A DNA stretch of 64,000 nucleotides from Candidatus Saccharimonadia bacterium (GCA_041743505.1 JBGTMQ010000017.1:85368-149367); one strand, 5' to 3'; shown: positions 36,976 to 58,080, counted from the first letter of the stretch. Notes: generated by a model not told the origin, from the letters alone. Numbers and translations: made by a program.

Positions 36976-37485
36976 CTACAGAATTCCTCCCGGTACCACG
37001 AAGCTTAGTATCGCAAAGGCTAGTATGAACAAAACCAAGGCCGTAACGGCATTTATCAGCCGGTCCTTCGCATCAGTAATTGCCTTGGGATCGCCATTAG
37101 ACACGATGTACTGGATACCCGCCACAATCACCATCAAAACTACTGCCGCGCCAACCGTAGCGGACAAGAACTGCAAAATGGTTTTCAGGTAATTAACAAC
37201 TATGCCGCCACCACTATTATCGACGCAATTTGAACCACCGCCCGGGTTTTTCGTAATCGGGACACCAATAGCCACCTGCCCTTCCGGACAGGTAATGTTA
37301 GACGGCTGTGGCGCTGTAGCACACTCGTTGATATTGCCGGAAGTGTCACAGGCCGGTTCCGCAGCCAAAGCCACCGTCGGCAAAGCTAGCGTCGGCAAAG
37401 CTAGCGCCGTAACTGCCGCCACAGTCAGTAAAATTTTGGCCAGGAAGCGTCTCATTGGCTGAAATTGTAGCCAAGCCCAAAGCAT
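36976..37485 (-). CDS. VirB2/TrbC-like pilin paralog 5 (signal peptide with a tandem-repeat segment)
   Basis: 169 aa; ...VGAAVVLMVIVAGIQYIVSNGDPKAITDAKDRLINAVTALVLFILAFAILSF. Signal peptide LALPTLALPTVALAA is encoded by an 18-nt tandem DNA repeat. Alternative start at Met 37455. Confidence 0.5.
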   Translation of the reverse strand: MLWAWLQFQPMRRFLAKILLTVAAVTALALPTLALPTVALAAEPACDTSGNINECATAPQPSNITCPEGQVAIGVPITKNPGGGSNCVDNSGGGIVVNYLKTILQFLSATVGAAVVLMVIVAGIQYIVSNGDPKAITDAKDRLINAVTALVLFILAFAILSFVVPGGIL

Positions 37486-37528: not shown

Positions 37529-40051
37529 TTGTTGATTGTGTTTTTGGTGAATCACATCTGGGGGAGGGCAGCTAGACAATCGCTGTGGGCGATCCTGTTT
37601 GCTGTGCTCTTGTGCCTGGTGCCTCAAGCCGTTTCCGCCGCCGGCGAATCCTACACCTGGCAAGGCACAGGTGACGCCAGCATTGTAGCCTCCGGCGGTA
37701 ACTTCGGGGTCAATAAAACCACCTTCGCCAAGACCGCCGACGCCGGCGGAAGCGCCACCTTTACCGCCAACGCCACCTATGAATGTAGCGGCAAAACCGT
37801 CACCGGCCCGCTTACCATCACAGTGGCTGCCGACAAGTACAAAAAAGCCTACCCCACCGAAGGAAGCGTTACGGGCGCCGGCGCTGCCTGTGCCTTTACG
37901 GCCGCGGTAATCAGCAAAGCCAACGTCGATCAGGTCACCGGCCAGCCCGTCCCCGCCGCCGGCCAGGACCCACGGGAAAGCTGCGACCAAGGCGGGTTTA
38001 CCTGGCTGTTCTGCCCCGTCATCGACAATATATCCTCAGCCGTTGCCGGCCTGGCCCGGGACGTGCTGGGGCCCATGCTTGAGGTCAAACCAATCAGCCC
38101 AGAAACCACACCGGATCTCTACAAAACCTGGACTCATATCCGTGACTTTGCTGTAGTCCTGTTTATTCTCGTGTTTTTTGCCATTATCGGCGCCACACTC
38201 ATACAACAAGATATCGGCGGCTTCGACCAATATACCGTCAAAAAGATCTTGCCCCGACTGGTTATTGCCTCAATCATGGTACAGTTTAGCTTCCTCATCT
38301 CAGGCATTATTGTCGATATCGGAAATGTCCTTGGAGGTGGCATCGGCCACTTGCTGTCTGCGGTCACTGATCCATCCAAAGGCCCGGCCAGCTTCACCAA
38401 CCTGGTCGGCAACCTGGTCACCGGAAGTGTAGCCTCGGTTGCAGGACTGGGCGCCGTCGCCGTCCTGGCGTCGTGGACTGTCGCAATCCCTGTGCTGCTC
38501 GGCCTGCTCTTGAGCCTGCTGACCGTCTTCCTGACGCTTGGCGCCCGCTTCCTCATCCTGGCCGTCCTGATCGCCATCTCACCGATAGCCATGCTCGCCT
38601 GGGTCCTCCCGAACACTCGCGATTTTGCCGCCGCCTGGTTCGAGTTTTTCGTCCGGCTCGTCCTAATGTACCCGCTGGTTATCCTCATCATCTCCGTAGC
38701 CGGCATCGTCAACCAAATACTGCCGTTTAGTGGCGACACCGCCAATAGCGGCAGCGCAGCAGTCGCAGTAGCCCTCATCAAGCCGCTTGTCGTCATTGCC
38801 GCCTTCCTCATTATTCCCATCAGCTTCAAGCTCGCCGGGCTAGCCCTGAGCCGTATCCATGGCCTGCTCACCGGCGTTGCCCAACAGGGTAAAGGCCTCA
38901 TCAAGGGCAGCGATATGTACCAACGGGGCCTCGAGGACCGTCAGGGACGCAAGAATACCTACATGGGCCGCGTCCTCAACTCCAAAACCATCAGCTCACT
39001 CCAAAATAAGGGGCGCGGCGGCCAAGCAGTCGGCGGTTTCATGAGCGGCGCCGCCGCCGTAGCCTTAATGCGCGCCCCCGCCAGCAAAGCCGCTTTGCAA
39101 CGCAGTAACTCTGCACTAGTGGCCAAGCGGGAAAAGAATCTGACCGAAATCAAAGAGGCCCAAAACCCCAACAACCTCAAAGCCGCTTTAGCCGCCATGA
39201 ATGGCGACGAAAGCGCCCGGGCCAAGCTGCAAAGAACCGCTCCAGACTTACTCCGCCTGGCTTCAACCGCTTCCGGCCGCGAAGCCATGTTCAACCGCCT
39301 TCTCGCCACTGAGTTCGCCGACAGCAAAGACCTTGACCAGTTCCGCACAACCGCACCAAAACGCGGCCTCAAATACTTTGGTGTCACCGGTGATACATCC
39401 GCGGAATGGCGCTCCCTGCGTGACGCCGGCCAGGCCAAACGTAACCAGTTACCGACCATCGTACAGCGGCTCGAACAAGCCAAAACCTACGACGTGGTTG
39501 ACCGCGCCGGCAACACGCTCAAGACCATTTCCCGTGACATGGGCGCCGTTGATATGAATGGCGTCTCCAAGTCATTCGCCAAATACACCGCTGCCAAGCT
39601 GGCCGATGTCTCGCCGGATGTCTTTGAAATGATGACCGACACCGCCAACCCAATCGCCGCCATGGATGCTGCCGAGGCCATGGCCATTGGATTGGAGCCA
39701 CGGCAACTCGCCAAAGTCTTCGACCCCAATGACCGCAACCCGGCTCCCCCTGAGCGCAAGATCGCTATCGCTAAAGCTATGCGGGCCCAATATGAGAACG
39801 TCTGGAACACCAACGATGAATACCGCTCCACCTTCGACGCCATGCATCATCAATTGGTCCGCGACGACAAGCTTGGCGTCCAGCTAACCCGTACCGCCGG
39901 CGCCACCGAAACCCAGCTCCGTGCCCTCTCAAACGAAGGCCAATCCTACGTTGCCTCGCGCTGGCTCAAAGACAAGAACTTCAAGTACTCAGATCTAAGC
40001 GGCATGACCGTCGCCGACATCAACGCCGCCGGCCATGCCCTCCGGAGATAA
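37529..40051 (+). CDS. VirB6/TrbL-like polytopic T4SS membrane protein with long hydrophilic C-terminal extension (paralog A)
   Basis: TTG start (the exact start is uncertain). Signal peptide, then a Cys-containing exported segment (CDQGGFTWLFCPVIDN), at least 6 TM helices (DQYTVKKILPRLVIASIMVQFSFLISGIIVDIGN...), then a ~400-aa Ala/Lys-rich soluble tail. Confidence 0.55.
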   Translation: MLIVFLVNHIWGRAARQSLWAILFAVLLCLVPQAVSAAGESYTWQGTGDASIVASGGNFGVNKTTFAKTADAGGSATFTANATYECSGKTVTGPLTITVAADKYKKAYPTEGSVTGAGAACAFTAAVISKANVDQVTGQPVPAAGQDPRESCDQGGFTWLFCPVIDNISSAVAGLARDVLGPMLEVKPISPETTPDLYKTWTHIRDFAVVLFILVFFAIIGATLIQQDIGGFDQYTVKKILPRLVIASIMVQFSFLISGIIVDIGNVLGGGIGHLLSAVTDPSKGPASFTNLVGNLVTGSVASVAGLGAVAVLASWTVAIPVLLGLLLSLLTVFLTLGARFLILAVLIAISPIAMLAWVLPNTRDFAAAWFEFFVRLVLMYPLVILIISVAGIVNQILPFSGDTANSGSAAVAVALIKPLVVIAAFLIIPISFKLAGLALSRIHGLLTGVAQQGKGLIKGSDMYQRGLEDRQGRKNTYMGRVLNSKTISSLQNKGRGGQAVGGFMSGAAAVALMRAPASKAALQRSNSALVAKREKNLTEIKEAQNPNNLKAALAAMNGDESARAKLQRTAPDLLRLASTASGREAMFNRLLATEFADSKDLDQFRTTAPKRGLKYFGVTGDTSAEWRSLRDAGQAKRNQLPTIVQRLEQAKTYDVVDRAGNTLKTISRDMGAVDMNGVSKSFAKYTAAKLADVSPDVFEMMTDTANPIAAMDAAEAMAIGLEPRQLAKVFDPNDRNPAPPERKIAIAKAMRAQYENVWNTNDEYRSTFDAMHHQLVRDDKLGVQLTRTAGATETQLRALSNEGQSYVASRWLKDKNFKYSDLSGMTVADINAAGHALRR

Positions 40052-40084: not shown

Positions 40085-40113
40085 TTGACATTTTTGTAGG
40101 CTTGGTGTATAAT
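40085..40113 (+). promoter_or_regulatory. consensus sigma70 promoter
   Basis: TTGACA-17 nt-TATAAT read directly in the sequence, about 100 nt upstream of the 40212 gene. Confidence 0.6.
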
Positions 40114-40211: not shown

Positions 40212-40907
40212 ATGTCTGCACCACTGAAGGACCAGCCACGGCTATACGAGACGCCGGCCTCACCGCCGGCTCGCGACAAGTTCCGGCACCGTCACCCAGT
40301 TATCTTCTGGGGCTTGATCTTAAGCCCGGTGCCATTACTTATCATTGCCTTCATGGCATTGGTACTACTGGCCAGCGCGCTGCCTGATGTCCCATCCGCG
40401 GCATCACCAGCTCCCGGCAGCATCAGCTCCACCCAGGGACAGGTAACCGCGCCGGCGCCACAGCGGGCCGACCCCACCAAGCAATACGATCTGTCCACGC
40501 CCACGGGTAAGATCGCGGCCTCAGATGCAATTGTGGCCATGGGCCCGCTCAAGACTGAATACTACCTCGATGCTACCGCCAGCGAGGTCGAAATCCGGGA
40601 CTGGGTCATAGACGTCGTGTTCATGCACTGCAACCCTTCAAACCGCTTTACCCGGTTTGACCTTCTGGCGCCGAACATCATTGCCGATCCCGTCCCCGGG
40701 AATTCGGTATATGATCTCTTCGACAACTGTGCCACTATCGGCACTCCAACCACGCAGTACCAGTACATGCTCAACCCCGTTCCAAATAAACCGGTCCGCC
40801 AGTACGACTGGGTCCTGGTCCGCCCGGGTCAACCGGACACCATGGCCACCGTACACCTCACCTGGAGGTCTGACCATTGGCTCATCACGGCAGTCAGCCC
40901 CCACTGA
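40212..40907 (+). CDS. hypothetical bitopic membrane protein (VirB8-like topology)
   Basis: 231 aa. Short cytoplasmic N-terminus, one TM helix, ~160-aa extracytoplasmic domain. The size and topology resemble VirB8, but no sequence motif confirms it. Confidence 0.4.
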   Translation: MSAPLKDQPRLYETPASPPARDKFRHRHPVIFWGLILSPVPLLIIAFMALVLLASALPDVPSAASPAPGSISSTQGQVTAPAPQRADPTKQYDLSTPTGKIAASDAIVAMGPLKTEYYLDATASEVEIRDWVIDVVFMHCNPSNRFTRFDLLAPNIIADPVPGNSVYDLFDNCATIGTPTTQYQYMLNPVPNKPVRQYDWVLVRPGQPDTMATVHLTWRSDHWLITAVSPH

Positions 40908-41013: not shown

Positions 41014-43716
41014 ATGGTGGATCAAACAGCAGCGGGCAAGCGCTTTATGAACCAGCGGTCTTCCGTCTGGCAACGAACCGTTTTTGGCCTCGCGCTAATC
41101 GCCGTCAGCCTCCTTGGCAACCTGCTGCTCATTGCCACAGCTTCGGCCGCCCCCGGCCGCCCCGAGGTCTACACGAAAATCAGCGAAGACGTCATTGCAG
41201 TCACAGGCGGCTATTTCGTAGACAAAACCTACAACCTTACGAAAATTCCAGGCACAAATAACTACCGGGGCGGTGTCCATGCCCCGGAATTTGACTATCC
41301 GTTCGCCAAATGTCTCTTTAGACACACCATCAACGTCGACGACGCCAATCCCCACAAAGGTGTAGTTGAAATCGAAACGGGCTTCGGAAACGGCAGCAAC
41401 TGTACCACCCAGCCTGAGAACTTTGAATGGGGCCCCGTCATCATCGCCCAGCCAGGTCAAACCCAAGAACAAGCCGCCGCTGCCGCCGGTGGTGGCGGTG
41501 CCGCCGGAGCCAATGAAATCGTAGCCACCTGCGACGCCGGCGCCTTCACCTGGCTCCTCTGCCCATTCATCGTCATCGCCCAAGACGGTGTCCGGATCCT
41601 CCAGGGCTGGGTCGAAAACGTCCTCGTCGTCACCCCGTTCAATACCAGCTCCCCGCTCTATTCCGCCTGGTCCGCCTTCCGCAACCTGGCCGACGTCTTC
41701 TTCGTCCTCATTTTCTTCGTCATCATCTTTGGCACCGGCCTCGGTCTAGACAACTACACTGTCAAAAAGATCCTGCCACGCTTAATAGCTGCCGCCATCC
41801 TCGTCCAATTTTCATACATCCTCTCCAGTATCGCCGTCGATTTCTCTAACATACTAGGTCTCGGTTTAAGCCAACTTGTTGCGTCAGCTGTGCCCGCCCA
41901 GTTTAACGCCGAGAAGAGTACCTATCTCCAGGTTGCTGCCCCCATTGCCGGCCTTCTAACCCTTGGTGTGGCCGGCGGAACCATTATCGCCATTGGCGCA
42001 CTGGTACCCGTTATGCTAGCTCTCGCTTCTGCATTCCTATCAATGCTAGCAGTCTTCGTCACGCTCGAGATCCGGCTTATCCTCATCAACTTCCTGGTTG
42101 TTATCTCCCCATTCGCCTTTGTATTCTGGGTACTACCCAACACCCAGCAGTATTTCAAAATGTGGTGGGAATATTTCAGCAAACTCCTTTTAATGTTCCC
42201 AATCATCATGCTCATGTTCACCGCCGCCAACCTGTTCAACCAAGTCACCATCACCACCAACACCGGCGACTTTAACGGCGACATAGCCAAAAACATCATT
42301 GCCTCCCTCCTGCCAATCTTCGTCTTCTTCCTCGTACCAGCCACCTTTAAACTCGCCGGCAGCGCCCTAGCCTTCGGCCATGGCTTAGTCACCCGAGCCG
42401 GCGGCGGTACCAACAAGGGCCTCCAAAGTGCCTTCTGGGGCAAGGATCAGCAGGAACGAAGCAAGCTTAAAGGTCAACAGAAACTTATGAATTTACGAGA
42501 CCAAGGACCTGCTAGCACCCGACTAGGTCGGTTTGCGCAAAACGCACAAAAACAAGCCGCTCAAAAACGTTCAGGATTCGGGTTTGGTGCCGATAAAGGC
42601 TTAAAGGGGCTTCAAATGAACCGAGCCCTCGATAAAACCGCCAGCGAACTCGCCCAATCGGCAGCAACAAAGGACTTCCACGCCCAGTACGGCAAACAAA
42701 CCTATGCGAATACTATGGCAAACCGCAAAGCAGCCGAAATGGACAAAATGCTCACTCAAAGCGCAAACGAAGCCTTCCTGAATCAAGAAGTAGATGTTGG
42801 AGGGGTCAATCTAAAAATTAAAGATGTCAACCTAAACGAAAGCGGCATCAAATCACTGAAGGACAAGGTTAAATCAGCCCTCAGTGACGGCGACCACGCT
42901 ACAGCTATAGCCGCCATGACAAAGCTCAGTCAATCGCAAAGCGGCGAAGACGCACTACAACAGCTTCGGGCAGATCCAAATGTATTCGGAGGCACAGACA
43001 CTGAACCTGTAATAAATAAGTTAAAAGATGTTTGGTCAAAAGGCACTGCAAACGCCAAAAGTCCTGACTTTAAAAAACCACCACAGAATGCCTGGAGCGA
43101 CCTAAGCCAAGAAGAAATAACAAGCATGAGCAATAAACAAGTAAATCGTGCTCTTGAGTATTACAATCGGAACGCTAGTGATCCAAAAGCACAAAAAGCT
43201 GCCAAACAATTTAGCGATAACTTCCAGAAAATACTTGCTAACCCTAACACCGCCAGCAAAATTAATCCGGATAGTGTTGATGCCGTCCAAAATTATCAGT
43301 GGGCCAAAGACACGACTACCGGCAAAGTCCTTACAGGGACTCCGCATCAAGACAGAACAGTATTTAGTAGCACCTCAGACTACCAGGCAGCAGCACATGC
43401 AGCTTCGTTATATACCAAACCGGGTTCAGCCACACCACCCCCAGCACAACCAGCCCCTCAGCCCGCAGCTCCACCACCACAACCAACTCCAACTCCGCTT
43501 ACACAACCAACCGTCAACGTAAATGTCCAGCCGACAAAGCCGACTATCATAACCGCTCCTCGCGCCGGTACACAGTTCCAACAGCCAACTCCTGGCTCCC
43601 TCTACGTCCCGAGCTCATACCAACCACCAACCACCAACCCGCGGCCACCCAAGGTTGATGTTGCCGTCGAAGAACACCGTGACGATCAAATCGGTGACGA
43701 CCGTAGTATCAGCTAA
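41014..43716 (+). CDS. VirB6/TrbL-like polytopic T4SS membrane protein with long hydrophilic C-terminal extension (paralog B)
   Basis: Paralog of 37529..40051 (CDAGAFTWLLCPFIV...; DNYTVKKILPRLIAAAILVQFSYILSSIAVDFSN...). 900 aa, with a Pro/Gln/Thr-rich C-terminus. Alternative start at Met 41047. Confidence 0.55.
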   Translation: MVDQTAAGKRFMNQRSSVWQRTVFGLALIAVSLLGNLLLIATASAAPGRPEVYTKISEDVIAVTGGYFVDKTYNLTKIPGTNNYRGGVHAPEFDYPFAKCLFRHTINVDDANPHKGVVEIETGFGNGSNCTTQPENFEWGPVIIAQPGQTQEQAAAAAGGGGAAGANEIVATCDAGAFTWLLCPFIVIAQDGVRILQGWVENVLVVTPFNTSSPLYSAWSAFRNLADVFFVLIFFVIIFGTGLGLDNYTVKKILPRLIAAAILVQFSYILSSIAVDFSNILGLGLSQLVASAVPAQFNAEKSTYLQVAAPIAGLLTLGVAGGTIIAIGALVPVMLALASAFLSMLAVFVTLEIRLILINFLVVISPFAFVFWVLPNTQQYFKMWWEYFSKLLLMFPIIMLMFTAANLFNQVTITTNTGDFNGDIAKNIIASLLPIFVFFLVPATFKLAGSALAFGHGLVTRAGGGTNKGLQSAFWGKDQQERSKLKGQQKLMNLRDQGPASTRLGRFAQNAQKQAAQKRSGFGFGADKGLKGLQMNRALDKTASELAQSAATKDFHAQYGKQTYANTMANRKAAEMDKMLTQSANEAFLNQEVDVGGVNLKIKDVNLNESGIKSLKDKVKSALSDGDHATAIAAMTKLSQSQSGEDALQQLRADPNVFGGTDTEPVINKLKDVWSKGTANAKSPDFKKPPQNAWSDLSQEEITSMSNKQVNRALEYYNRNASDPKAQKAAKQFSDNFQKILANPNTASKINPDSVDAVQNYQWAKDTTTGKVLTGTPHQDRTVFSSTSDYQAAAHAASLYTKPGSATPPPAQPAPQPAAPPPQPTPTPLTQPTVNVNVQPTKPTIITAPRAGTQFQQPTPGSLYVPSSYQPPTTNPRPPKVDVAVEEHRDDQIGDDRSIS

Positions 43717-43739
43717 CAATCCCCCGACAACTTGCTTAC

Positions 43740-43768
43740 TTGCTAATTATTAGTAAATATGCTATAAT
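43740..43768 (+). promoter_or_regulatory. sigma70 promoter with extended -10
   Basis: TTGCTA-17-TGcTATAAT upstream of the 43846 gene. Confidence 0.55.
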
Positions 43769-43845
43769 AAATAATCTATTTGTGCTTCTTTTTTATATGA
43801 ACACATATAGCGCCCCCGACAGCCTCGACAAGACAGGAAAAGCTA

Positions 43846-44532
43846 ATGAGCAAGCAAGGTTGGGAAGCGTACAAAGCAGACGCCCTCAAGCGGCTTGAAG
43901 GTCGTGACGTACAAGCGCCGAGTCAACCAACCCAGACGCTGGGTCAGACACCTCAAGCGCCAACGACTGCACAGGCACCAACTGCTGAGTTTGATCCTGC
44001 GGCAGCATTCCGCGCACACCAAGCCACCGAGCAAACACGTCAACGTGAGCTCGCACAACAGCACGCAGCAGAACGTGAGCTTACTCAAACAAGAGCCCGA
44101 GAGCTTTCAGCTTTCATCGAACGCCTTCGGATGCTCCTGTCCAAAAAAGGCTCACCTGGGCTAACAAGCTTCGAGATTCAGTTAACATATTCCATGTATG
44201 AACCAGCGGTACGGCGAAGGAGTGGTCGTATAATTTCTCCCGAAAAAGAAACACCCCCGACATATCGGACAGAATGGGGCTGGGAGATTGCAAGTATTCA
44301 AGGCCCCGGTGACTATATCTCGTCGCCTCGTTATAATCTCATGCTCTGTAGAGATGGAGCACTATGGGTTACTCTTGGAGCTAGAACATACCTCGATATA
44401 AGTGACGAAACCGGCAATTTCACCCTGACTTGCCGACAAACATCACTTTCACTAGCTAGGCTAGAAGCCGACATCATTCCGGGAGTGGCGAGGTTAGTTG
44501 ATAACCTCAATCTCCAGTGGGATGGCAACTAG
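43846..44532 (+). CDS. hypothetical protein, cassette paralog 1 (candidate T4SS-associated substrate)
   Basis: 228 aa. N-terminus MSKQGWEAYKADALKRLEGR, then a Q/P/T-rich low-complexity segment, a coiled coil, and a C-terminal globular domain (TEWGW.IA...NLMLC.DG.LWVTLG...DIIPGV.RL...L.WDGN). No signal peptide. Confidence 0.5.
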   Translation: MSKQGWEAYKADALKRLEGRDVQAPSQPTQTLGQTPQAPTTAQAPTAEFDPAAAFRAHQATEQTRQRELAQQHAAERELTQTRARELSAFIERLRMLLSKKGSPGLTSFEIQLTYSMYEPAVRRRSGRIISPEKETPPTYRTEWGWEIASIQGPGDYISSPRYNLMLCRDGALWVTLGARTYLDISDETGNFTLTCRQTSLSLARLEADIIPGVARLVDNLNLQWDGN

Positions 44533-44540
44533 CTGTCCAC

Positions 44541-44575
44541 CCCGCCCCTTGCGAACTGCAGGGGGTCTTATTATT
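44541..44575 (+). terminator. conserved terminator element, copy 1
   Basis: CCACCCCGCCCCTTGCGAACTGCAGGGGGTCTTATTATTT: stem CCCCTTGC/GCAGGGGG plus a T-run. Confidence 0.6.
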
Positions 44576-44630
44576 TACCAATAAATGCTCCGCAAAGCCG
44601 CTGTTTGTGGGCGAATTCCTTCTTACACGC

Positions 44631-44659
44631 TTGCAAGAATTGCAGAAATATGTTATAAT
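44631..44659 (+). promoter_or_regulatory. sigma70 promoter with extended -10
   Basis: TTGCAA-17-TGtTATAAT. The -10 region ATGTTATAATTAACTAT is nearly identical to the one at 32421..32437. Confidence 0.55.
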
Positions 44660-44722
44660 TAACTATCTATCACTCTCCTGAGTTGTTAGTGCACCAACTT
44701 CCGCTACAGACAGGACAACCCG

Positions 44723-45388
44723 ATGAGCAAGCAAGGCTGGGAATCGTACGTACAAGATGCCCTCAAGCGACTCAAAGCACGTCAGGCGCCTACAACAAGT
44801 CAACCAACCCAACTGGCTCAGCCTAGCCAGCCAGCTTCAACATCTAGGGACCCTGCAACCCAACTTCGAGCACATCAAGCTGAAATGCAAACTCGTCAAC
44901 GTGAGGAAACGAAACGCCAAGCGACCGAGCTCCTAGAAGCTGAGCAAGAAAACCAAGAGCTGGCAGCCTTCCTAGAACGGCTTCAACGCTTTTTGTTGAA
45001 GCACAACTCACCAGGACTATCAAGCTTCAGTATTCAAACTGGCGGCCACGAAAATAAGAAACTACCTTCAGAGCCCACGGGTCCGCTAGCCGGACGGAGG
45101 AAAGAAGATACAACTTACTCGGTGCCAATAAGCCGAACTGAATGGGGTTGGCAAATAGCCACCCAGAGAGATAGCAGTGGCGAGTCACCAAATACCAACC
45201 TCATGTTGTGTCAGGACGGAACACTTTGGGTTACGCTCGGGTCTACCGTCTACTTTGATGGTTCAGATGGAACCGGCCGGCACACTCTAGGCCACAAAAC
45301 AATTGACACGGTCGGTCTATACATCGATATCATCCCTGGCGTCACCCGACTCCTAAGCGAGCTCGGTCTAGAGTGGGATGGCAACTAA
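44723..45388 (+). CDS. hypothetical protein, cassette paralog 2
   Basis: 221 aa, same architecture as 43846..44532 (MSKQGWESYVQDALKRLKAR...TEWGWQIA...NLMLCQDGTLWVTLG...DIIPGVTRL...LEWDGN). Confidence 0.5.
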   Translation: MSKQGWESYVQDALKRLKARQAPTTSQPTQLAQPSQPASTSRDPATQLRAHQAEMQTRQREETKRQATELLEAEQENQELAAFLERLQRFLLKHNSPGLSSFSIQTGGHENKKLPSEPTGPLAGRRKEDTTYSVPISRTEWGWQIATQRDSSGESPNTNLMLCQDGTLWVTLGSTVYFDGSDGTGRHTLGHKTIDTVGLYIDIIPGVTRLLSELGLEWDGN

Positions 45389-45398
45389 CCCATCAGCC

Positions 45399-45432
45399 CC
45401 GCCCCCTGCGAAACTGCAGGGGGTCTTTTTAA
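45399..45432 (+). terminator. conserved terminator element, copy 2
   Basis: CAGCCCCGCCCCCTGCGAAACTGCAGGGGGTCTTTTT. Confidence 0.6.
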
Positions 45433-45452
45433 TAAAAACATACGCGTAAAGA

Positions 45453-45481
45453 TTGACAAAATATTAAATACAATATATAAT
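45453..45481 (+). promoter_or_regulatory. consensus sigma70 promoter
   Basis: TTGACA-17-TATAAT upstream of the 45578 gene. Confidence 0.6.
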
Positions 45482-45577
45482 ATAGGATTCAACAACTGCA
45501 TTAGCCGTACCGCCGCCTGCAGCAAGACGAAACTTTTCATCGATACCGATAACACCTCCGATCTGAAAGGCTAAATC

Positions 45578-46240
45578 ATGTGGCCCTTCCGTAACCGACG
45601 AACCAGAATGCAGCCCACTACAGACAAAGGCGAACCAACGAGCTTGATGGGCTGGAGAAGCAACCGTGCCAAGCGAATCGCAGAGGTACAAGCACGAACC
45701 GCCGAAAGACGCAAGCGAACCGCAGAAGTACAAGCACGAACCCTTGCAAGACTACGTCGAACCTTGGGTCCTCAGAGTGTATCAACTGACTCTGCTACAT
45801 CCAATCTTGCATCCACTGGCTCCTCAAATACGACCGACACAGTCAGCGTATTCGATCGGGCGAAGCAAGCCGCTCAAGCGGACGACGCTGCTAGCACTCA
45901 GATTGCTGCTGCTCGCTATCAGGAAGACGCGGATGCCGTTCAAGCAGCAGCCGCTGATTGGTTTATCCGCATGGGCGTGAGGCCAGTACCGGTAACAACC
46001 GGCAGAGGCGGGGGAGTAGATGTAGAATTTCTCACCGCTTACTGGGAACTAGAAGGACGGAGCTTCCGGGGTACTATGTTACTAACCGGCAGTGGCTCTT
46101 ATGGAACCCTCAGGGTTGAGATCAAAGTAGAGCCAGTATGGTGCAGCTATCCAAAAGGTCGCTGTCAATACTGCCCTCACGAAAGCTGGAGAGATGCAAA
46201 CAACTTGACGGAGTTAGGTCTAGCTCTCCGTAGTTCTTAA
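45578..46240 (+). CDS. hypothetical protein, cassette gene 3 (basic N-terminus with tandem repeat)
   Basis: 220 aa. N-terminal Arg-rich segment with a ~39-nt DNA tandem repeat (AEVQARTAERRKR / AEVQARTLARLRR). Unrelated to paralogs 1 and 2 but flanked by the same promoter and terminator architecture. Confidence 0.45.
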   Translation: MWPFRNRRTRMQPTTDKGEPTSLMGWRSNRAKRIAEVQARTAERRKRTAEVQARTLARLRRTLGPQSVSTDSATSNLASTGSSNTTDTVSVFDRAKQAAQADDAASTQIAAARYQEDADAVQAAAADWFIRMGVRPVPVTTGRGGGVDVEFLTAYWELEGRSFRGTMLLTGSGSYGTLRVEIKVEPVWCSYPKGRCQYCPHESWRDANNLTELGLALRSS

Positions 46241-46249
46241 CCCGTCCAC

Positions 46250-46287
46250 CCCCGCCCCTTGCGAAACTGCAAGGGGCCTTCTTTTTA
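46250..46287 (+). terminator. conserved terminator element, copy 3
   Basis: CCACCCCCGCCCCTTGCGAAACTGCAAGGGGCCTTCTTTTT. Confidence 0.6.
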
Positions 46288-46405
46288 CCCAAATATTGAA
46301 ATGTTCCGGTTCACAGATTCGTATATTTAGCATAACCATTCGCAATAAATGGCACTTTATCGCTACTCCATTTGCAATAATAGGAAAATTTACCCCCAAA
46401 ATCAC

Positions 46406-46434
46406 TTGCCCCCACAGCAATCTGGCGATACAAT
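46406..46434 (+). promoter_or_regulatory. sigma70-like promoter upstream of the virB3/virB4-like operon
   Basis: TTGCCC-17-TACAAT. Preceded by direct repeats ATTCGCAATAAATGG / ATTTGCAATAATAGG. Confidence 0.4.
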
Positions 46435-46506
46435 GACCCATTCGCTTGGAGTCGAAGGCGATATAGCGTAAGCTTATTACAAGTAGTGGTGTGAGTTCAG
46501 GAGCCA

Positions 46507-47352
46507 ATGGGACAGTATAAAGTTCCTCAAGACGTCGAGTCCGAAGATAAAATCCTTGGGCCGTTAACGTTCAAACAGTTTATTTACGCCTTGGTCGGGT
46601 TCGGTTGGGCCATCGTGTGCTTTGGTGTTTTTCAAAAAATACCTGTTGTAATGATTTTATTGGGATTGCCGCCTACAACGCTATTCTTGCTGCTGGCTTT
46701 TTACCGGCGCGATGGCCAGAACTTCGAGCAATTACTCATCGCCATGGTCGGCTTCTTCGGTAACGACCGCAAACGGCTCTGGCGCAAGGATGACGTGGCG
46801 GAGACGTTCCACATTGAGCCGCACAAGATCATCAAGGAGCAGAGCCAGCGCAACCCGGTCGAAGTCCGCAGTGAGCTAGAGCGCCTGGCTACCATGATCG
46901 ACGCCCGTGGCTGGAACCAAACGCCTGTCCCGGCCGCCGAGGTCATCTCGCCCATCGGCTACAATGCCGGCGACCGGCTGGTAGCACCGGACAGCACGCC
47001 GGCCAACAGCAACCTGCCCCAGCCTCAAGCCAGCGAAGACATGCTAGACCTACAACACAGCCCACTGGCCCAAAACCTGGCCAGCCTCATCGAGACGGCA
47101 GCTGCTGACGTCCGCGAAGAGGCCATCGGCCAAATGAAAGCCCGCCAAACCGCCGCCCAGCGTCAAGCCGCTACTGCCGCTGCCACTCCCGCCCAGAGCA
47201 TAAGCGGCGTGACAGCAACCAACCCGAACGATATAATGAGATTAGCAACGGAGAGGGATGACTTGACCGTCTCGCAGCTGGCCGCGACCGCCACTCGGAA
47301 CGCGCCCCTGCAAGAAGGTCAGTCAGTGAGTGTACGCGCAAATGGTCAATAA
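46507..47352 (+). CDS. VirB3/PrgI-like T4SS membrane protein
   Basis: An AGGAG RBS. Two closely spaced TM helices near the N-terminus (LTFKQFIYALVGFGWAIVCFGVF...VMILLGLPPTTLFLLLAFY), immediately upstream of the VirB4-like ATPase. Long hydrophilic C-terminal tail. Confidence 0.5.
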   Translation: MGQYKVPQDVESEDKILGPLTFKQFIYALVGFGWAIVCFGVFQKIPVVMILLGLPPTTLFLLLAFYRRDGQNFEQLLIAMVGFFGNDRKRLWRKDDVAETFHIEPHKIIKEQSQRNPVEVRSELERLATMIDARGWNQTPVPAAEVISPIGYNAGDRLVAPDSTPANSNLPQPQASEDMLDLQHSPLAQNLASLIETAAADVREEAIGQMKARQTAAQRQAATAAATPAQSISGVTATNPNDIMRLATERDDLTVSQLAATATRNAPLQEGQSVSVRANGQ

Positions 47353-48088
47353 CCAGTCAACCAGTAACCCAGCCAACACCGGCAAGAGCACTCAGGGCAG
47401 CTTGCTGATTTCTGAAATCAAAGACGGCGTGGTCGTAATGCGCGACGGCTCGTTGCGCGGCGTCATCCTCGGCTCGGCCATTAACTTCGACCTCATGAGC
47501 TCGCAGGAGCAGGAGGCCGTCGAATTTGCTTACCAGGGCTTTATTAACTCATTGCACTTTCCCGTCCAAATCAGTATCAAGAGCCAGAAAATAGACCTGG
47601 ACGGATATCTCGAAAAGTTAACCGCCCTGCGCAGTGCCCAGCCCAATGAGCTGCTCGGCCTGCTCATGGACGACTACATGGCTAACATCAAGGCCCTGGT
47701 CGACGAGGTCAACATTATGGACAAGCAGTTCTACGTCACCGTGCCGTTCTTCCCGCCGGTAAATCCCACCAAAACGGTTAGCCTCATTGCCGGCATCAAA
47801 GCCGCCTTACAACCCGTCCCGATTATTACGGTTGAAGAAGATGAGTTCAAAAAGTACAAGCAAGAGCTGTCGCAGCGCATGGCCTTGGTCTCAAGCGGCA
47901 TGTCCCAAATGGGCATCCGGGCGCTAGCCTTGGGTACCCAGGAGCTGGTTGACCTGTATTACGGCTGGTACAACCCGGATGTGGCCGTCAACGAGAAACT
48001 CATCGACACTTCACAGCTCACCTCACCGGTAGTTACCAAGGGTGACGGCGCCGCGCCCCGCGGACCATTACCGGGAGCACCAGTATGA
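47342..48088 (+). CDS. VirB4-like ATPase, N-terminal domain encoded as a separate ORF
   Basis: ISEIKDGVVVMRDGSLRGVILGSAINFDLMSSQEQEAVEFAYQGFINSLHFPVQISIKSQKIDLDGYLEKL matches the conserved VirB4/TrbE/CagE N-terminal region. The start overlaps the upstream stop. Confidence 0.55.
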   Translation: MVNNQSTSNPANTGKSTQGSLLISEIKDGVVVMRDGSLRGVILGSAINFDLMSSQEQEAVEFAYQGFINSLHFPVQISIKSQKIDLDGYLEKLTALRSAQPNELLGLLMDDYMANIKALVDEVNIMDKQFYVTVPFFPPVNPTKTVSLIAGIKAALQPVPIITVEEDEFKKYKQELSQRMALVSSGMSQMGIRALALGTQELVDLYYGWYNPDVAVNEKLIDTSQLTSPVVTKGDGAAPRGPLPGAPV

Positions 48089-48224: not shown

Positions 48225-50114
48225 ATGGCTATATTTGGCAAAAAACAAGAACCAATGACACCAGGCGGCCTGGCCGCAGCTCAACAAGCTCAAGAGCAGC
48301 GCGAAGCCGAGTTAATCTACCGCCAAGGCATTGTCACCATGCGCGACCTCATCGCGCCACCATCACTCGAGATCGAGTCAGGCTACATTCGGCTAGGCAA
48401 GCGCTTCGCCAAGACCATTTACGTCTACGGTTTTCCCCGCCAGGTCTTTACCGGCTGGCTATCGCCCATTATCAACCTGGACGAAATTATCGACATTTCG
48501 CTGTTTATTTATCCCGTAGAGAGCAAGGTCGTGCTGGAAAACCTGCGCAAAAAAGTCGGTCAGCTGGAGGCCAGTTACTCGATCAACCAGGAGAAGGGCA
48601 AAGTCCGCGACCCTGGACTCGAAGCCGCCATCCAAGACGCCGAGGAACTGCGTGACAAACTCCAGGTAGGGGAGGAGCGCTTCTTCCGCTTCGGCTTGTA
48701 CCTCACCATGTATGCCGATTCACTCGACGAGCTCACCCAAGTCACCCGCAAAATCGAGGGCATTTTCGGCCAGTCACTGGTCTACACCAAGCCGGCCACC
48801 ATGCAGATGGAGCAGGGCTTCAACTCCACCACACCGCTCGGCTCAGACCAGCTCGGCATCTCCCGCAACATGAACACCGGCGCCCTGTCTACCAGTTTCC
48901 CGTTCACCTCGGCCGAATTGAGCCGCAACGAAGGAGTGTTGTACGGCCTCAACCGGCACAACAACGGTTTGGTTTTGTTTGACCGCTTCTCGCTCGAAAA
49001 CGCCAACATGGTCGTGTTCGCCAAGTCCGGCGCCGGTAAGTCCTTCGCTATCAAGCTCGAAGCCCTACGTAGCCTCATGATGGGCACCGAAATCATCATC
49101 ATCGACCCGGAGAACGAGTACAAAACCCTCGCAGAGGCCGTCGGCGGCAGCTACCTGCGCCTGTCCCTGGCTGCCACCACCCGCATCAATCCCTTTGACC
49201 TGCCGCGCGTCTTTGACCAGGAAGAGGCCGACAACGCCTTGCAGGCCAACATTATCACTCTGCACGGCCTGCTGCGCCTCATGATGGGTGGTGCCTCCGT
49301 CAACACCACCACCGGCGCCACGCTCACCACACCACTGACTCCGGCCGAAGACGCCGACCTGGACGTGGCTATCATCAACACCTACGCCCGCGCCGGCATC
49401 ACCAAAGACCCGTTGACCCACAACGTCATGCCGCCAACCATGAATGACCTCTATAACACCCTGGCCTCCATGACCGGCAACGGCCCCGGACTGGCCCAGC
49501 GCCTGCGCAAATACACCACCGGCACATTCAGTGGTATCTTCTCAGAACAGTCCAACGTCAAACTCGACAACCCGTTCCTGGTCTTCAACATCCGCGACCT
49601 CGAAGACGAACTGCGGCCCGTCGGCATGTACATCGTCCTAAATTACATCTGGAACAAGGTCAAATCCGACAAGCGTAGGCGCATCCTCATCGTGGACGAG
49701 GCTTGGCAGCTCATGAAATACGACGACTCGGCTGCCTTCATGTTCTCTCTGGCCAAACGTGCCCGCAAGTACTTCCTCGGCCTTACCACCATCTCCCAGG
49801 ACGTGGAAGACTTCTTGAGTAACAAAATGGGCCGGGCAGTCGTGGCCAACTCCTCGCTACAGCTCTTGCTCAAGCAAGCCCCCAGCGCCATCGACATCGT
49901 GGCCGACACCTTCAAGCTCACCAGCGAGGAGAAAAACCGCCTCAGCCAGTTCCCGGTCGGTGAAGGATTGTTCTTTGCCGGTCTCAACCACGTCATCATT
50001 CGCATTCTCGCCTCACAAACCGAAGCCGAGCTCATCTCAACCAACCCGCAAGCTCTCCAAGCCGCCCGCCAGGAGCAGGCTGAGGCTGATGCCGGTCGCC
50101 AAGGAGCAGCCTGA
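48225..50114 (+). CDS. VirB4/TrbE-like T4SS ATPase, central and C-terminal ATPase part
   Basis: A GGGGAGGA RBS; Walker A FAKSGAGKSF; Walker B RRILIVDEAWQLM; conserved VirB4 middle region (IAPPSLEIESGYIRLGKRFAKTIYVYGFP). Confidence 0.8.
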   Translation: MAIFGKKQEPMTPGGLAAAQQAQEQREAELIYRQGIVTMRDLIAPPSLEIESGYIRLGKRFAKTIYVYGFPRQVFTGWLSPIINLDEIIDISLFIYPVESKVVLENLRKKVGQLEASYSINQEKGKVRDPGLEAAIQDAEELRDKLQVGEERFFRFGLYLTMYADSLDELTQVTRKIEGIFGQSLVYTKPATMQMEQGFNSTTPLGSDQLGISRNMNTGALSTSFPFTSAELSRNEGVLYGLNRHNNGLVLFDRFSLENANMVVFAKSGAGKSFAIKLEALRSLMMGTEIIIIDPENEYKTLAEAVGGSYLRLSLAATTRINPFDLPRVFDQEEADNALQANIITLHGLLRLMMGGASVNTTTGATLTTPLTPAEDADLDVAIINTYARAGITKDPLTHNVMPPTMNDLYNTLASMTGNGPGLAQRLRKYTTGTFSGIFSEQSNVKLDNPFLVFNIRDLEDELRPVGMYIVLNYIWNKVKSDKRRRILIVDEAWQLMKYDDSAAFMFSLAKRARKYFLGLTTISQDVEDFLSNKMGRAVVANSSLQLLLKQAPSAIDIVADTFKLTSEEKNRLSQFPVGEGLFFAGLNHVIIRILASQTEAELISTNPQALQAARQEQAEADAGRQGAA

Positions 50115-56756: not shown

Positions 56757-57017
56757 TTACAAACTCTGGATACTGATCGCCAGCCGCGTATCAGCTAGAT
56801 CATGCCGCCGCAACAATTCAATCTGGCGCATCCTAAGCTCCGACGCCACCGCCGAATTCGGCGTAATAATCCGCAACGTTCCCTGATGCAACTGCTTCAC
56901 CCGGGCTTGTCCCGAATACCATTCATCCAGCGTCGCCTGAACCTGAGTCAACACGTCCGCCCGGTCCATACCCAACTGCTCCCGCTTTTTGGCAAAATAA
57001 TCCTCAAACATGCACAC
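56757..57017 (-). CDS. DUF721 domain protein (DciA-like), recF-associated
   Basis: 86 aa, located immediately downstream of recF as in many dnaA-dnaN-recF-DUF721-gyrB clusters. The TLRIITPNSAVASEL core matches DUF721. Confidence 0.5.
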   Translation of the reverse strand: MCMFEDYFAKKREQLGMDRADVLTQVQATLDEWYSGQARVKQLHQGTLRIITPNSAVASELRMRQIELLRRHDLADTRLAISIQSL

Positions 57018-58080
57018 CCTCAGCCGTCGAAATAATACTATGCGGCGCCTTAATCTCCCGCGTCACTGCATCCGCGTCCGTCGTCGTAATCAGCGTCTGG
57101 TGATCCCGCAAACGCTCTAGTAAATACCCGCGCCGGTTACGGTCCAACTCGCTAAACACGTCATCCAAAAGCAAGATCGGCCGGATACCGGTTTTAGTCT
57201 CCGCATAGCCCACCTCAGCCAGCTTCAGGGCCAACACCACCGTGCGCGTCTCGCCCCGCGACGCCACAGCCGAAATGTCATTGTTTTTAAAATGTACCCT
57301 AAAATCCTCGCGGTGCGGCCCGATAGTCGTAAACCCGGCGCCCAGATCCCGCATCAAGTTGTTATTAAGCGCCTCCATAAAGGCATCTCCGTACGAATCA
57401 CCCGCCACACTAGGCAGATACTCCAGCTCTAGATCTACCACCGAACCGGCAATATCGCCGTACAGGCCGGGCAGGGAAGCATTAAGCTGGACCAGCAAGT
57501 CCTGGCGCTGCTGATAAATCTCCGAGGCTAGCTCCGTCAGCTTCAGATCCCAGGCAAAGATCTGCCGGCGCAAAGCTTCCATCTCCAGTCCCTCCAGGAG
57601 CGCGTTGCGCTGCTTCAGGACGCGCCGGTATGCCTGAAGCGTCTTCAGATACCCCCGGTCGGTCTGGCACAACAAAAAATCCAAGTATTTGCGGCGCCCA
57701 TCCGGCGGCCCAGCCGTCAGCTCCAAATCAGTCGGCTCAAACAACGTCACCTGAATCTGCCCCACATGACCCACCAGCGTGCGCTTGGTTCCGTCATGCG
57801 TAATACGCTTCTCAAGCGGACCACCCGCTACACTCAAACCCAGCGCATATTCCACCTCATCCCCAGATCCCACAATCCGAAAATGGTCCTGCTCATGCCG
57901 GATCAGGTCCCGGTCCTTCGCCCGAAACGATTTCGTCGATGCCAGCGTATACAAACTCTCCAGCAAATTAGTCTTACCGCTGGCATTCGGGCCCACCACC
58001 AGCGTCACCGCCGGATGCAGCTCATACCGCGCCCGCTCATAGGACCTAAAATTCGTTAACTCCAGCTCGCGCATCGTCAT
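57004..58080 (-). CDS. recF: DNA replication and repair protein RecF
   Basis: LELTNFRSYE...VVGPNASGKTNLLESL Walker A, plus an ABC-type signature region. 358 aa. Confidence 0.85.
   Translation of the reverse strand: MTMRELELTNFRSYERARYELHPAVTLVVGPNASGKTNLLESLYTLASTKSFRAKDRDLIRHEQDHFRIVGSGDEVEYALGLSVAGGPLEKRITHDGTKRTLVGHVGQIQVTLFEPTDLELTAGPPDGRRKYLDFLLCQTDRGYLKTLQAYRRVLKQRNALLEGLEMEALRRQIFAWDLKLTELASEIYQQRQDLLVQLNASLPGLYGDIAGSVVDLELEYLPSVAGDSYGDAFMEALNNNLMRDLGAGFTTIGPHREDFRVHFKNNDISAVASRGETRTVVLALKLAEVGYAETKTGIRPILLLDDVFSELDRNRRGYLLERLRDHQTLITTTDADAVTREIKAPHSIISTAEGVHV

What the first reader, a model, noticed from the sequence alone, without database searches (positions are those of the whole stretch)
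43740..46287. Three monocistronic cassettes with consensus promoters and a shared 40-nt terminator inside the T4SS-like locus
Genes 43846..44532, 44723..45388 and 45578..46240 are each preceded by a near-consensus sigma70 promoter (TTGCTA/TTGCAA/TTGACA-17-TATAAT). Each is followed by the same element, CC(A)CCCCGCCCC(T)TGCGAAACTGCAGGGGG plus a T-run, which forms a 7-8 bp GC stem. The first two proteins are clear paralogs. They share the N-terminus MSKQGWE.Y..DALKRL and the C-terminal domain TEWGW.IA...NLMLC.DG.LWVTLG...DIIPGV.RL..L.WDGN. Neither has a signal peptide, and their middle regions diverge (low-complexity Q/P/T plus coiled coil). The third protein is unrelated but packaged identically. 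Strong independent expression, duplication with diversification and position inside a secretion locus together make them candidate translocated substrates, effector/immunity-like proteins or pilus-associated factors.
Basis: seen in the sequence. Interest (0 to 1): 0.75.

Follow-up and report, generated by a model that had tools for sequence, protein, structure and literature searches.

The report
Orphan gene cassettes inside Saccharibacteria T4SS
Three self-contained genes, each with its own promoter and a shared terminator, sit as a foreign-looking, lineage-specific 2.7-kb insertion inside the type IV secretion locus of an uncultured Saccharibacteria genome; the proteins have almost no relatives anywhere, so a role as secreted cargo is possible but unproven.

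Summary
Three about 220-aa ORFs (43846-44532, 44723-45388, 45578-46240) each follow a sigma70-like promoter. Each ends in the same about 45-nt element, a 9-10 bp GC hairpin plus a T-run, found nowhere else in the window or in 1.5 Mb of related loci.

The window is a Saccharimonadia (Patescibacteria) chromosome. The cassettes lie between a VirB6/TrbL-type gene and the prgI(VirB3)-trsD-virB4 unit. In about 45 of 55 related genomes, including the closest (89-92% VirB4 identity), those two genes are under 150 nt apart. The cassettes are therefore a roughly 2.7-kb lineage-specific insertion.

Their GC3 (0.43-0.47) is the lowest of all real genes in the window (mean 0.62). casA and casB are old paralogs under purifying selection. 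casC is unrelated in sequence but carries the same terminator.

An exhaustive profile search found one relative, on a 1.15-kb contig with the same promoter-ORF-hairpin layout. No domain, fold, phage, plasmid or defence match exists.

Best reading: moron-like, horizontally acquired accessory cassettes, amplified by tandem duplication. A role as T4SS cargo rests on position alone.

The parts
43717..46400 (+). Lineage-specific insertion block of about 2.7 kb: three cassettes plus an AT-rich tail, between the virB6-type stop codon and the native prgI promoter
   Evidence: In about 45 of 55 related loci the virB6-type ORF ends less than 150 nt before prgI. Homology with relatives resumes at about 46400-46430. 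No tblastn hit for the three ORFs in 80 related loci.
43740..43768 (+). Promoter of cassette A (TTGCTA-17-TATAAT, extended -10 TG)
   Evidence: 70% identical to the cassette B promoter over 47 aligned columns, above the shuffle maximum of 0.67
43846..44532 (+). casA, 228 aa, soluble: N-terminal helix, Q/P/T-rich linker, long helix, beta-rich C-terminal domain ending in WDGN
   Evidence: GC3 0.43
44533..44578 (+). Shared terminator element, copy 1 (C-rich flank CCACCCCGCCCC, hairpin 44544-44566, T-run)
44631..44659 (+). Promoter of cassette B (TTGCAA-17-TATAAT, extended -10 TG)
44723..45388 (+). casB, 221 aa, paralog of casA (46% identity; pN 0.35, pS 0.70)
   Evidence: low-confidence AF2 model
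45389..45435 (+). Shared terminator element, copy 2 (hairpin 45401-45424)
45453..45481 (+). Promoter of cassette C (TTGACA-17-TATAAT, 12 of 12)
45578..46240 (+). casC, 220 aa, basic (pI 9.9) ORFan. Arg-rich N-terminal helix with a 42-nt tandem repeat, linker, long helix, beta-rich domain with C-x6-C-x2-C-x-H, C-terminal helix
46241..46288 (+). Shared terminator element, copy 3 (hairpin 46254-46277). It carries a C-G to U-A compensatory change relative to copy 2.
46406..46434 (+). Native promoter-like site of the prgI-trsD-virB4 unit (TTGCCC-17-TACAAT), retained downstream of the insertion
   Evidence: the -35 TTG and the -10 TACAAT/TACGAT/TATGAT align with relatives L083, L086, L087 and L006
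41014..43716 (+). Left flank: second VirB6/TrbL-type polytopic membrane protein (900 aa)
   Evidence: Paralog of the 840-aa ORF 37529-40051, which hits Pfam TrbL. tblastn hits in 57 related loci.
46507..47352 (+). Right flank: PrgI-family (VirB3-like) protein, followed by trsD-like (47330-48088) and virB4 (48225-50114)

Best explanation
The block is a lineage-specific, horizontally acquired set of three autonomous accessory transcription units. They are 'moron-like': each has its own sigma70 promoter, a short unstructured leader with a Shine-Dalgarno sequence, one ORF of about 220 aa and its own strong intrinsic terminator.

The block is inserted at the boundary between the virB6-type gene and the separately promoted prgI(VirB3)-trsD-virB4 unit of a Saccharimonadia chromosomal T4SS locus.

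How it works:
- Shown from sequence: each gene has the signals to be transcribed on its own and terminated by its hairpin, so it need not depend on the T4SS genes. The T4SS genes downstream keep their native promoter.
- Shown: the repeated terminator is conserved far more than synonymous sites and keeps its pairing through compensatory changes.
- Inferred: the array grew by tandem duplication, through unequal recombination between the repeated promoter and terminator ends. This gave casA and casB, which then diverged under purifying selection. casC is either an ORF placed in the same chassis or a paralog diverged beyond recognition.
- Shown: the products are soluble, non-membrane proteins. Predicted at low confidence: they share a helix, disordered linker, long helix, small beta domain, C-terminal helix layout.
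- Inferred from position only: they most likely act as dispensable, lineage-specific accessory factors of the epibiotic lifestyle, with T4SS cargo or adaptor the leading single guess at about 0.25.
For: Insertion:
- virB6-type and prgI are adjacent (gap under 150 nt) in about 45 of 55 related loci and in the closest relatives.
- No tblastn hit for the three ORFs in 80 related loci.
- The native prgI promoter and the TAGCGTAAGCTTA motif are retained to the right of the block.

Autonomy:
- Promoters and terminators are present for each gene.
- The leaders show no significant structure and no Rfam match.

Foreign origin:
- GC3 is 0.43-0.47, against a mean of 0.62 (sd 0.07) for the other ORFs. These are the lowest three real genes in the window.
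- The codon log-likelihood is about 0, against 0.2-0.6 for resident genes.

Real genes and an old duplication:
- casA versus casB gives pS 0.70 (saturated) and pN 0.35. Constraint varies by region.

Element under constraint and private to the cassettes:
- Copies are 77-84% identical; 97% of cells are paired; two pairs show compensatory change.
- It occurs only at the three cassettes in 64 kb, and is absent from 1.5 Mb of related loci and from the metagenome and viral collections.

The layout recurs elsewhere:
- The only homolog in 1.84 billion cluster representatives (of about 15 billion proteins), P0124, lies on a 1.15-kb contig with an extended -10 promoter and a hairpin element with the same GTCCACC..GCCCC flank. 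The first and last 30 nt of that contig are identical.

Permissive site:
- Two other lineages carry IS200-like Y1 transposases in the same junction.
Against: - Only one genome carries the block, and no same-species strain was available. Gain is therefore inferred by parsimony, not observed.
- Low GC3 could reflect weak selection on young or fast-evolving genes rather than transfer.
- No donor was found: phages, plasmids and viral contigs all gave nothing.
- For casC, the codon statistics do not separate frame 0 from frame 1 and there is no homolog. Its coding status rests on ORF length, the Shine-Dalgarno sequence and its packaging.
- Similarity of the casC promoter and leader to the others is not significant. 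The shared-chassis idea therefore rests mainly on the terminator.
- Nothing tested bears directly on function.
Confidence: 0.6

Rival explanations
1. The three proteins are substrates (effectors) that the adjacent T4SS translocates into the host bacterium. The conserved C-terminal domain of casA and casB would serve as the recognition module.
For: - Position inside an essential T4SS locus whose substrates are unknown (PMC10633639, PMC12102498).
- Soluble proteins with no Sec signal.
- Strong independent expression signals.
- Paralogs with a conserved C-terminal domain and variable linkers.
- Lineage-specific content, as is usual for effector repertoires.
Against: - No BID, XVIPCD or other known signal domain matches.
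- The C-terminal 30 residues carry net charge -2, -3 and +1.
- No enzymatic or toxin domain, and no fold match.
- No coupling protein in the window.
- The family is absent from all other Saccharibacteria with the same T4SS.
- The junction also accepts unrelated insertions.
Confidence: 0.22
2. The cassettes are selfish or mobile-element-derived cargo (for example from an unknown Saccharibacteria phage or a hairpin-dependent element). Their function would be unrelated to secretion, such as exclusion, anti-defence or nucleic-acid binding. They would lie here only because the virB6|prgI boundary is a permissive inter-operon site.
For: - Foreign codon usage.
- Moron-like architecture.
- The same junction holds IS200-like Y1 transposases flanked by GC hairpins in L050 and L059.
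- The homolog contig L082 is bounded by identical hairpin elements.
- casC is basic with Arg-rich repeats and a Cys3His cluster.
Against: - No match in PHROGs, PADLOC, phage records, plasmid records or viral contigs.
- No transposase or integrase among the window ORFs of 150 aa or more.
- The element occurs only three times in 64 kb, always directly after a stop codon and in one orientation.
Confidence: 0.3
3. The block is an integron-like or site-specific-recombination cassette array, and the shared element is the recombination site.
For: - Equal-sized units (853-877 nt apart), each ending in the same structured element.
- One unit carries an unrelated ORF.
- L082 is bounded by identical element copies.
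Against: - Each unit has its own promoter, whereas integron cassettes are typically promoterless (established knowledge).
- The element is a near-perfect short hairpin with a T-run and no attC-type core sites.
- No tyrosine recombinase or any integrase among the window ORFs of 150 aa or more.
- casA and casB are related along their whole length, promoter included. That fits tandem duplication.
Confidence: 0.04
4. One or more of the ORFs, especially casC, is not a functional gene. It would be a decaying duplicate or a chance ORF between regulatory repeats.
For: - The casC codon log-likelihood does not favour its frame.
- casC has no homolog.
- The AF2 models are low-confidence.
Against: - casA and casB show pN/pS of about 0.5 on uncorrected proportions, and about 0.23 after correction, with conserved blocks. 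A third homolog conserves the same blocks.
- casC is an uninterrupted 220-codon ORF placed exactly between a 12-of-12 promoter with a Shine-Dalgarno sequence and the conserved terminator.
Confidence: 0.05

Closest known systems
Phage 'morons' (autonomous promoter-gene-terminator units inserted between genes that are adjacent in related phages; Hendrix-type definition, from established knowledge)
   Same: Each unit has its own promoter and its own terminator. The flanking genes are adjacent in relatives. Composition differs from the surroundings. The content is accessory and lineage-specific.
   Different: The host structure is a chromosomal T4SS locus next to dnaA, dnaN and recF in a Patescibacterium, not a phage or prophage. 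There are no phage genes and no PHROG matches. There are three units in tandem, and they share one terminator element.
Effector genes linked to T4SS loci (Bartonella Bep/BID proteins; Xanthomonas X-Tfe proteins with XVIPCD domains)
   Same: Small multigene sets encoded beside the secretion genes. Paralogs share a conserved C-terminal domain and have variable upstream parts. No Sec signal.
   Different: No BID or XVIPCD match: the only BID hit in the locus is a sub-threshold one in the VirB6-type protein, not in the cassettes. No catalytic N-terminal domain, no adjacent immunity gene pattern, and no VirD4 coupling protein in the window. The T4SS is of the monoderm MPF-FATA type, for which no protein signal is defined (PMC12102498).
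Patescibacterial/Saccharimonadia T4SS gene cluster (Quinonero-Coronel et al. 2025, PMC12102498; Wang et al. 2023, PMC10633639)
   Same: The surrounding locus matches the published description: VirB6, PrgI/VirB3, TrsD, VirB4, lysozyme/peptidase, pilin, proximity to dnaA, and no relaxase.
   Different: The three cassettes are not part of that conserved set. They are missing from every other locus examined.
REP elements with RAYT / IS200-like Y1 transposases
   Same: A short GC-rich hairpin with a conserved 5' flank, repeated after genes. Y1 transposases flanked by hairpins occupy the same junction in two other Saccharibacteria.
   Different: Only three copies in 64 kb, all in one orientation and all directly after cassette stop codons. 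No Y1 transposase in the window. The T-run makes it a canonical intrinsic terminator.

Membership tests
Rho-independent (intrinsic) terminator | Stable GC-rich stem-loop immediately followed by a U/T-run, placed downstream of a stop codon on the coding strand | tested here: met
   Hairpins of 9-10 pairs, -16.5 to -19.7 kcal/mol, followed by T-rich tails, starting 12-14 nt after each stop codon. Termination activity itself was not measured.
Moron (phage accessory transcription unit) | Own promoter and own terminator flanking a single gene | tested here: met
Moron (phage accessory transcription unit) | Inserted between two genes that are adjacent in related genomes | tested here: met
   virB6-type to prgI gap under 150 nt in about 45 of 55 relatives and in the closest ones
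Moron (phage accessory transcription unit) | Nucleotide composition distinct from neighbouring genes | tested here: met
   GC3 0.43-0.47 against a mean of 0.62
Moron (phage accessory transcription unit) | Resides in a phage or prophage genome | tested here: not met
   Chromosomal T4SS locus among housekeeping genes, with no phage protein families. It therefore works like a moron but is not one in the strict sense.
T4SS-translocated effector | Recognisable translocation signal (BID, XVIPCD, or a positively charged C-terminal tail) | tested here: not met
   No Pfam or NCBIfam match. C-terminal 30-residue net charge is -2, -3 and +1. The signals of monoderm-type T4SSs are unknown, so this does not exclude export.
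T4SS-translocated effector | Type IV coupling protein (VirD4/TcpA) available to recruit substrates | tested here: inconclusive
   None among the window ORFs of 150 aa or more. In Patescibacteria the T4CP is usually encoded far from virB4 (PMC12102498), and the rest of the genome was not available.
T4SS-translocated effector | T4SS-dependent transfer into a recipient cell | not testable with these tools
   Requires a translocation assay.
Integron gene cassette | attC site with paired core sites, and an intI integrase with attI nearby | tested here: not met
   The element is a simple hairpin plus T-run. No recombinase among the window ORFs of 150 aa or more.
Integron gene cassette | Cassettes generally promoterless, expressed from Pc | tested here: not met
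   Each unit has its own site scoring 10-12 of 12.
REP/RAYT system | Many dispersed copies of the palindrome, and a RAYT (Y1 transposase) gene | tested here: inconclusive
   Three copies only in 64 kb and no Y1_Tnp in the window. The remaining part of the genome was not searchable.
casA/casB/P0124 protein family (new, unnamed) | Module made of helix (AFLE.L..FL...SPGL..F.IQ) plus beta segment (GW.I...LMLC.DG.LWV), with the end motif DIIP.V..L...L.L.WDG | tested here: met
   Shared by casA, casB and the first half of P0124. The second half of P0124 repeats the module, z = 8-10 against shuffles. casC does not match.

The most novel reading that the evidence does not exclude
casA, casB and casC would be the first identifiable cargo proteins of the Patescibacterial T4SS. 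They would be lineage-specific, strongly expressed host-manipulation factors. They would be carried in a portable promoter-ORF-terminator chassis whose repeated hairpin ends let Saccharibacteria duplicate and swap effector genes at the secretion locus.
Probability: 0.1. Interest if true: 0.8.

Novelty: new variant of a known kind. Interest (0 to 1): 0.4.

Why it matters
The T4SS is essential for the epibiotic growth of Saccharibacteria, yet what it transports is unknown (PMC10633639; PMC12102498). Lineage-specific, independently expressed soluble proteins planted in the middle of that locus are reasonable candidates to test as cargo or adaptors.

Separately, the case shows that moron-style acquisition (promoter, gene and terminator dropped between two conserved neighbours) also operates in the streamlined chromosomes of ultrasmall bacteria. 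It also defines a new, extremely rare protein family: three members among roughly 15 billion predicted proteins.

The limits are severe. There is one uncultured genome, no structure and no functional evidence. For now it is a lead, not a discovery.

Tried and rejected
Homology searches:
- Pfam, NCBIfam, PHROGs, PADLOC and PDB sequence searches on casA, casB, casC and P0124 gave nothing above noise.
- Word-indexed searches of 5.8 billion proteins returned only self and the paralog.
- The exhaustive profile search returned one real relative, P0124. It also returned P0125, rejected as a false positive: a 759-aa protein made of tandem repeats, apparently eukaryotic, whose 11 repeats each weakly match one 39-residue stretch.
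- For casC only the word-indexed search, tblastn against the loci, and the phage, plasmid and viral scans were possible. No exhaustive profile search could be run.

Structure:
- AlphaFold2 gave pLDDT 48 for casB (3-sequence alignment) and 57 for casC (single sequence).
- Foldseek against the PDB gave no hit below E = 0.4. The models are used only for the order of secondary structure.

casC as a diverged paralog:
- BLASTP, hhalign and shuffle tests were all non-significant. It is therefore not claimed.
- The resemblances I saw by eye were SLMGW versus SKQGW at the N-terminus, ELGL at the C-terminus, and CACCTCCGA in the leaders of casC and L082. They are recorded as unproven.

Searches for the element and for the family in DNA collections:
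- Exact or degenerate element patterns found nothing in the metagenome and viral collections.
- Back-translated family patterns found nothing in either collection.
- blastn of the whole insertion against phage and plasmid records found nothing.
- A covariance model found only its own training copies, plus one ordinary terminator in L002.

Other ideas rejected:
- Leader RNA structure or a riboswitch: no Rfam hit, and folding z-scores were not significant.
- Integron or REP readings: rejected or left open as set out in the membership table.
Full report
WHAT IS THERE

ORFs 43846-44532 (casA, 228 aa), 44723-45388 (casB, 221 aa) and 45578-46240 (casC, 220 aa) lie head to tail on the + strand.

Each is preceded by a sigma70-type site:
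- TTGCTA-17-TATAAT at 43740
- TTGCAA-17-TATAAT at 44631
- TTGACA-17-TATAAT at 45453

The first two have an extended -10 TG.

Each ORF is followed, 12-14 nt after its stop codon, by a hairpin plus T-run at 44544-44566, 45401-45424 and 46254-46277. The hairpins fold at -16.5 to -19.7 kcal/mol, which is 2.2 to 4.6 sd better than shuffles.

The three hairpin regions form one repeat family with a spacing of 853-858 nt. They are 77-84% identical over about 48 nt, whereas shuffled controls never exceed 65%. Copy 2 has a C-G pair where copy 3 has U-A and copy 1 has U.G, so pairing is kept through a compensatory change. With only four sequences this is suggestive, not statistically strong: 75 of 500 shuffles reach the observed value.

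The leaders (57-90 nt) show no significant structure and no Rfam match.

THE PROTEINS

casA and casB are 46% identical over their full length (E = 4e-60). Synonymous sites are saturated (pS 0.70) while pN is 0.35, so the duplication is old and both copies are under purifying selection.

Constraint is uneven:

| Region of casA/casB | aa identity | pS | pN |
|---|---|---|---|
| N-terminal 20 residues | 75% | 0.41 | 0.15 |
| Helix 61-112 | 48% | 0.61 | 0.36 |
| Linker before the C-terminal domain | 15% | 0.83 | 0.66 |
| C-terminal domain | 54% | 0.74 | 0.34 |

The linker is essentially free to vary.

casC shows no significant similarity to either paralog by BLASTP, profile comparison or shuffle tests.

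None of the three has a hydrophobic segment. casA and casB are near neutral to acidic, and casC is basic with pI 9.9.

AlphaFold2 models were of low confidence (pLDDT 48 and 57). I use them only to note that both proteins are predicted as helix, disordered linker, long helix, beta segment, C-terminal helix. Fold searches with these models returned nothing meaningful.

WHERE IT IS

The VirB4 protein at 48225-50114 has thousands of close homologs annotated as Saccharibacteria or Saccharimonadia. The best match among species-representative genomes is 92% identical.

The locus reads, in order:
- T4SS pilin (36976-37485, minus strand)
- VirB6/TrbL-type (37529-40051)
- a 231-aa membrane protein
- a second VirB6-type gene (41014-43716)
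- the three cassettes
- PrgI/VirB3 (46507-47352)
- TrsD-like
- VirB4
- a 983-aa protein
- lysozyme/peptidase
- two more ORFs
- recF, dnaN and dnaA

This matches the published description of the Patescibacterial T4SS: of monoderm type, lacking a relaxase, often close to dnaA (PMC12102498). In Southlakia epibionticum this T4SS is essential for epibiotic growth, and its substrates are unknown (PMC10633639).

THE KEY COMPARATIVE RESULT

I fetched 80 related loci around VirB4 and five more from the closest protein relatives.

- None encodes anything similar to casA, casB or casC (tblastn).
- In about 45 of 55 loci that cover the region, the VirB6-type ORF ends less than 150 nt before prgI.
- This holds for the closest relatives: L002-L006, and L083, L086 and L087 with 89-92% VirB4 identity.
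- To the right of the cassettes, homology with relatives resumes at about 46400-46430. It includes a conserved promoter-like site (TTGCCC-17-TACAAT) and a palindromic motif TAGCGTAAGCTTA about 40 nt before the prgI start.

So 43717 to about 46400 is a roughly 2.7-kb lineage-specific insertion. It lies at a boundary between two transcription units and leaves the native prgI promoter intact.

Exceptions in other lineages are instructive. Four loci have a split VirB6 tail. Two (L050, L059) carry an IS200-like Y1 transposase flanked by GC hairpins at exactly this junction. The site is therefore a recurrent landing place.

COMPOSITION

The three cassette genes have GC3 of 0.43, 0.47 and 0.47. The other ORFs of the window average 0.62 (sd 0.07), and the T4SS genes range from 0.56 to 0.77.

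The only other ORF that low (6523-7017) is an alternative frame inside the arginase gene.

The in-frame codon log-likelihood under the resident codon table is about 0, against 0.2-0.6 for resident genes.

This argues for acquisition from a lower-GC3 source. The extended -10 promoters look like those in other Saccharibacteria loci, for example in front of the L059 transposase. I therefore suspect a donor within or associated with that group, but I found none. Phage records, plasmid records and viral contigs gave no match.

RARITY AND THE ONE RELATIVE

Word-indexed searches of 5.8 billion proteins returned only the query and its paralog.

An exhaustive profile search of 1.84 billion cluster representatives returned one real relative, P0124 (E = 1e-40). 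It also returned one false positive made of tandem repeats.

P0124 (317 aa) holds two copies of the helix-plus-beta module (z = 8-10). It lies on a 1,153-nt contig from another sample. The layout there is the same:
- a hairpin element with the same 5' flank (GTCCACC..GCCCC) but a different, still complementary stem
- an extended -10 promoter, 70% identical to that of casB
- the ORF
- the identical element again

The first and last 30 nt of the contig are identical. That is what a short-k assembly produces for a tandem array or for a unit bounded by repeats. This last point is my inference from assembler behaviour, not a tool result.

The element itself is private to these cassettes as far as I could look:
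- three copies in the 64-kb window
- none in 1.5 Mb of related loci by fuzzy matching or by covariance model
- none in the metagenome or viral collections

One ordinary bidirectional terminator in the closest relative has almost the same stem without the flank. The stem sequence alone is therefore not unique.

INTERPRETATION

The best-supported account is structural and evolutionary. A promoter-ORF-terminator unit of foreign origin entered the virB6|prgI boundary. It was amplified by tandem duplication using its repeated ends, and the copies diverged. This is the phage 'moron' logic applied to a chromosomal secretion locus of an ultrasmall bacterium. Four of the five defining moron features are met; residence in a phage is not.

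The terminators also insulate the downstream T4SS unit from three strong promoters. That may explain why the element is conserved much better than synonymous sites. Gene conversion is an alternative explanation that I cannot exclude.

Function is not established. My estimates are:
- T4SS cargo or adaptor: about 0.25. This rests on position, solubility, lack of a Sec signal and lineage specificity.
- A role unrelated to secretion, delivered by an unknown mobile source: about 0.3.
- Integron-like array: unlikely.
- Non-genes: unlikely.

No recombinase, transposase or coupling protein is encoded by any window ORF of 150 aa or more.

VERDICT

The finding is a new variant of a known kind: moron-like accessory cassettes and a new, very rare protein family in a Patescibacterial T4SS locus.

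It is of moderate interest as a source of testable candidates for the unknown T4SS cargo. It rests on a single uncultured genome.

Noticed in passing
window 46464-46476 (also L002:8401, L003:8359, L083:6401): The motif TAGCGTAAGCTTA, which contains the 8-bp palindrome TAAGCTTA, is conserved 40-85 nt upstream of the prgI start in this genome and its closest relatives. It lies downstream of a conserved -10 box. It could be an operator or a leader element of the prgI-trsD-virB4 unit.
   Followed up: partly
L050:7240-7794 and L059:7330-7935: IS200-like Y1 transposase genes (Pfam Y1_Tnp) are inserted at the same virB6|prgI junction in two other Saccharibacteria. Each is flanked by GC-rich palindromes (GGGGGACTGTCCCCC in L050; CAGGGTCTGACCTTGCAA and its inverse in L059), so they look RAYT/REP-like.
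   Followed up: partly
window 40212-40907 (promoter 40085-40113): A 231-aa protein with one N-terminal hydrophobic segment lies between the two VirB6-type genes. It has a 12-of-12 consensus promoter and no tblastn hit in any of 80 related loci, yet its codon usage is resident-like (GC3 0.71). It is a fast-evolving lineage-specific T4SS-locus gene of a different kind from the cassettes.
   Followed up: partly
window 45670-45753 (casC residues 30-57): A 42-nt tandem duplication (83% identical) encodes the Arg-rich repeat RAKRIAEVQARTAE / RRKRTAEVQARTLA in the N-terminal helix of casC.
   Followed up: no
window 46142-46180 (casC residues 189-201): The only Cys and His residues of casC form a cluster, C-x6-C-x2-C-x-H, which may be a small metal-binding knuckle in the beta-rich domain.
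   Followed up: no
L082:1-30 and 1124-1153: The 1,153-nt contig carrying the only homolog (P0124) begins and ends with the same 30 nt, which break inside the hairpin loop. This suggests a tandem array or a repeat-bounded unit in that organism.
   Followed up: partly
L002:136-169: The closest relative has an ordinary bidirectional terminator (AAAAGCCCCTGCAAATTGCAGGGGCTTTT). Its stem nearly matches the cassette hairpin, but it lacks the C-rich 5' flank.
   Followed up: partly
window 37529-40051 and 41014-43716: There are two tandem VirB6/TrbL-type genes. The second has a long Pro/Gln/Thr-rich C-terminal tail and lower GC (0.46-0.51) in its 3' half. In several relatives this gene is 1,300-2,200 aa long or is split into pieces.
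   Followed up: partly
window 57004-62104 (minus strand): recF, dnaN and dnaA lie immediately downstream of the T4SS locus. This agrees with the published note that Patescibacterial T4SS clusters often sit next to the replication origin.
   Followed up: yes
P0125 (hit): A 759-aa protein made of about 11 tandem repeats, apparently eukaryotic, scored E = 3e-12 against the casA/casB profile by summing weak matches to one 39-residue stretch. It is an example of a repeat-driven false positive.
   Followed up: yes
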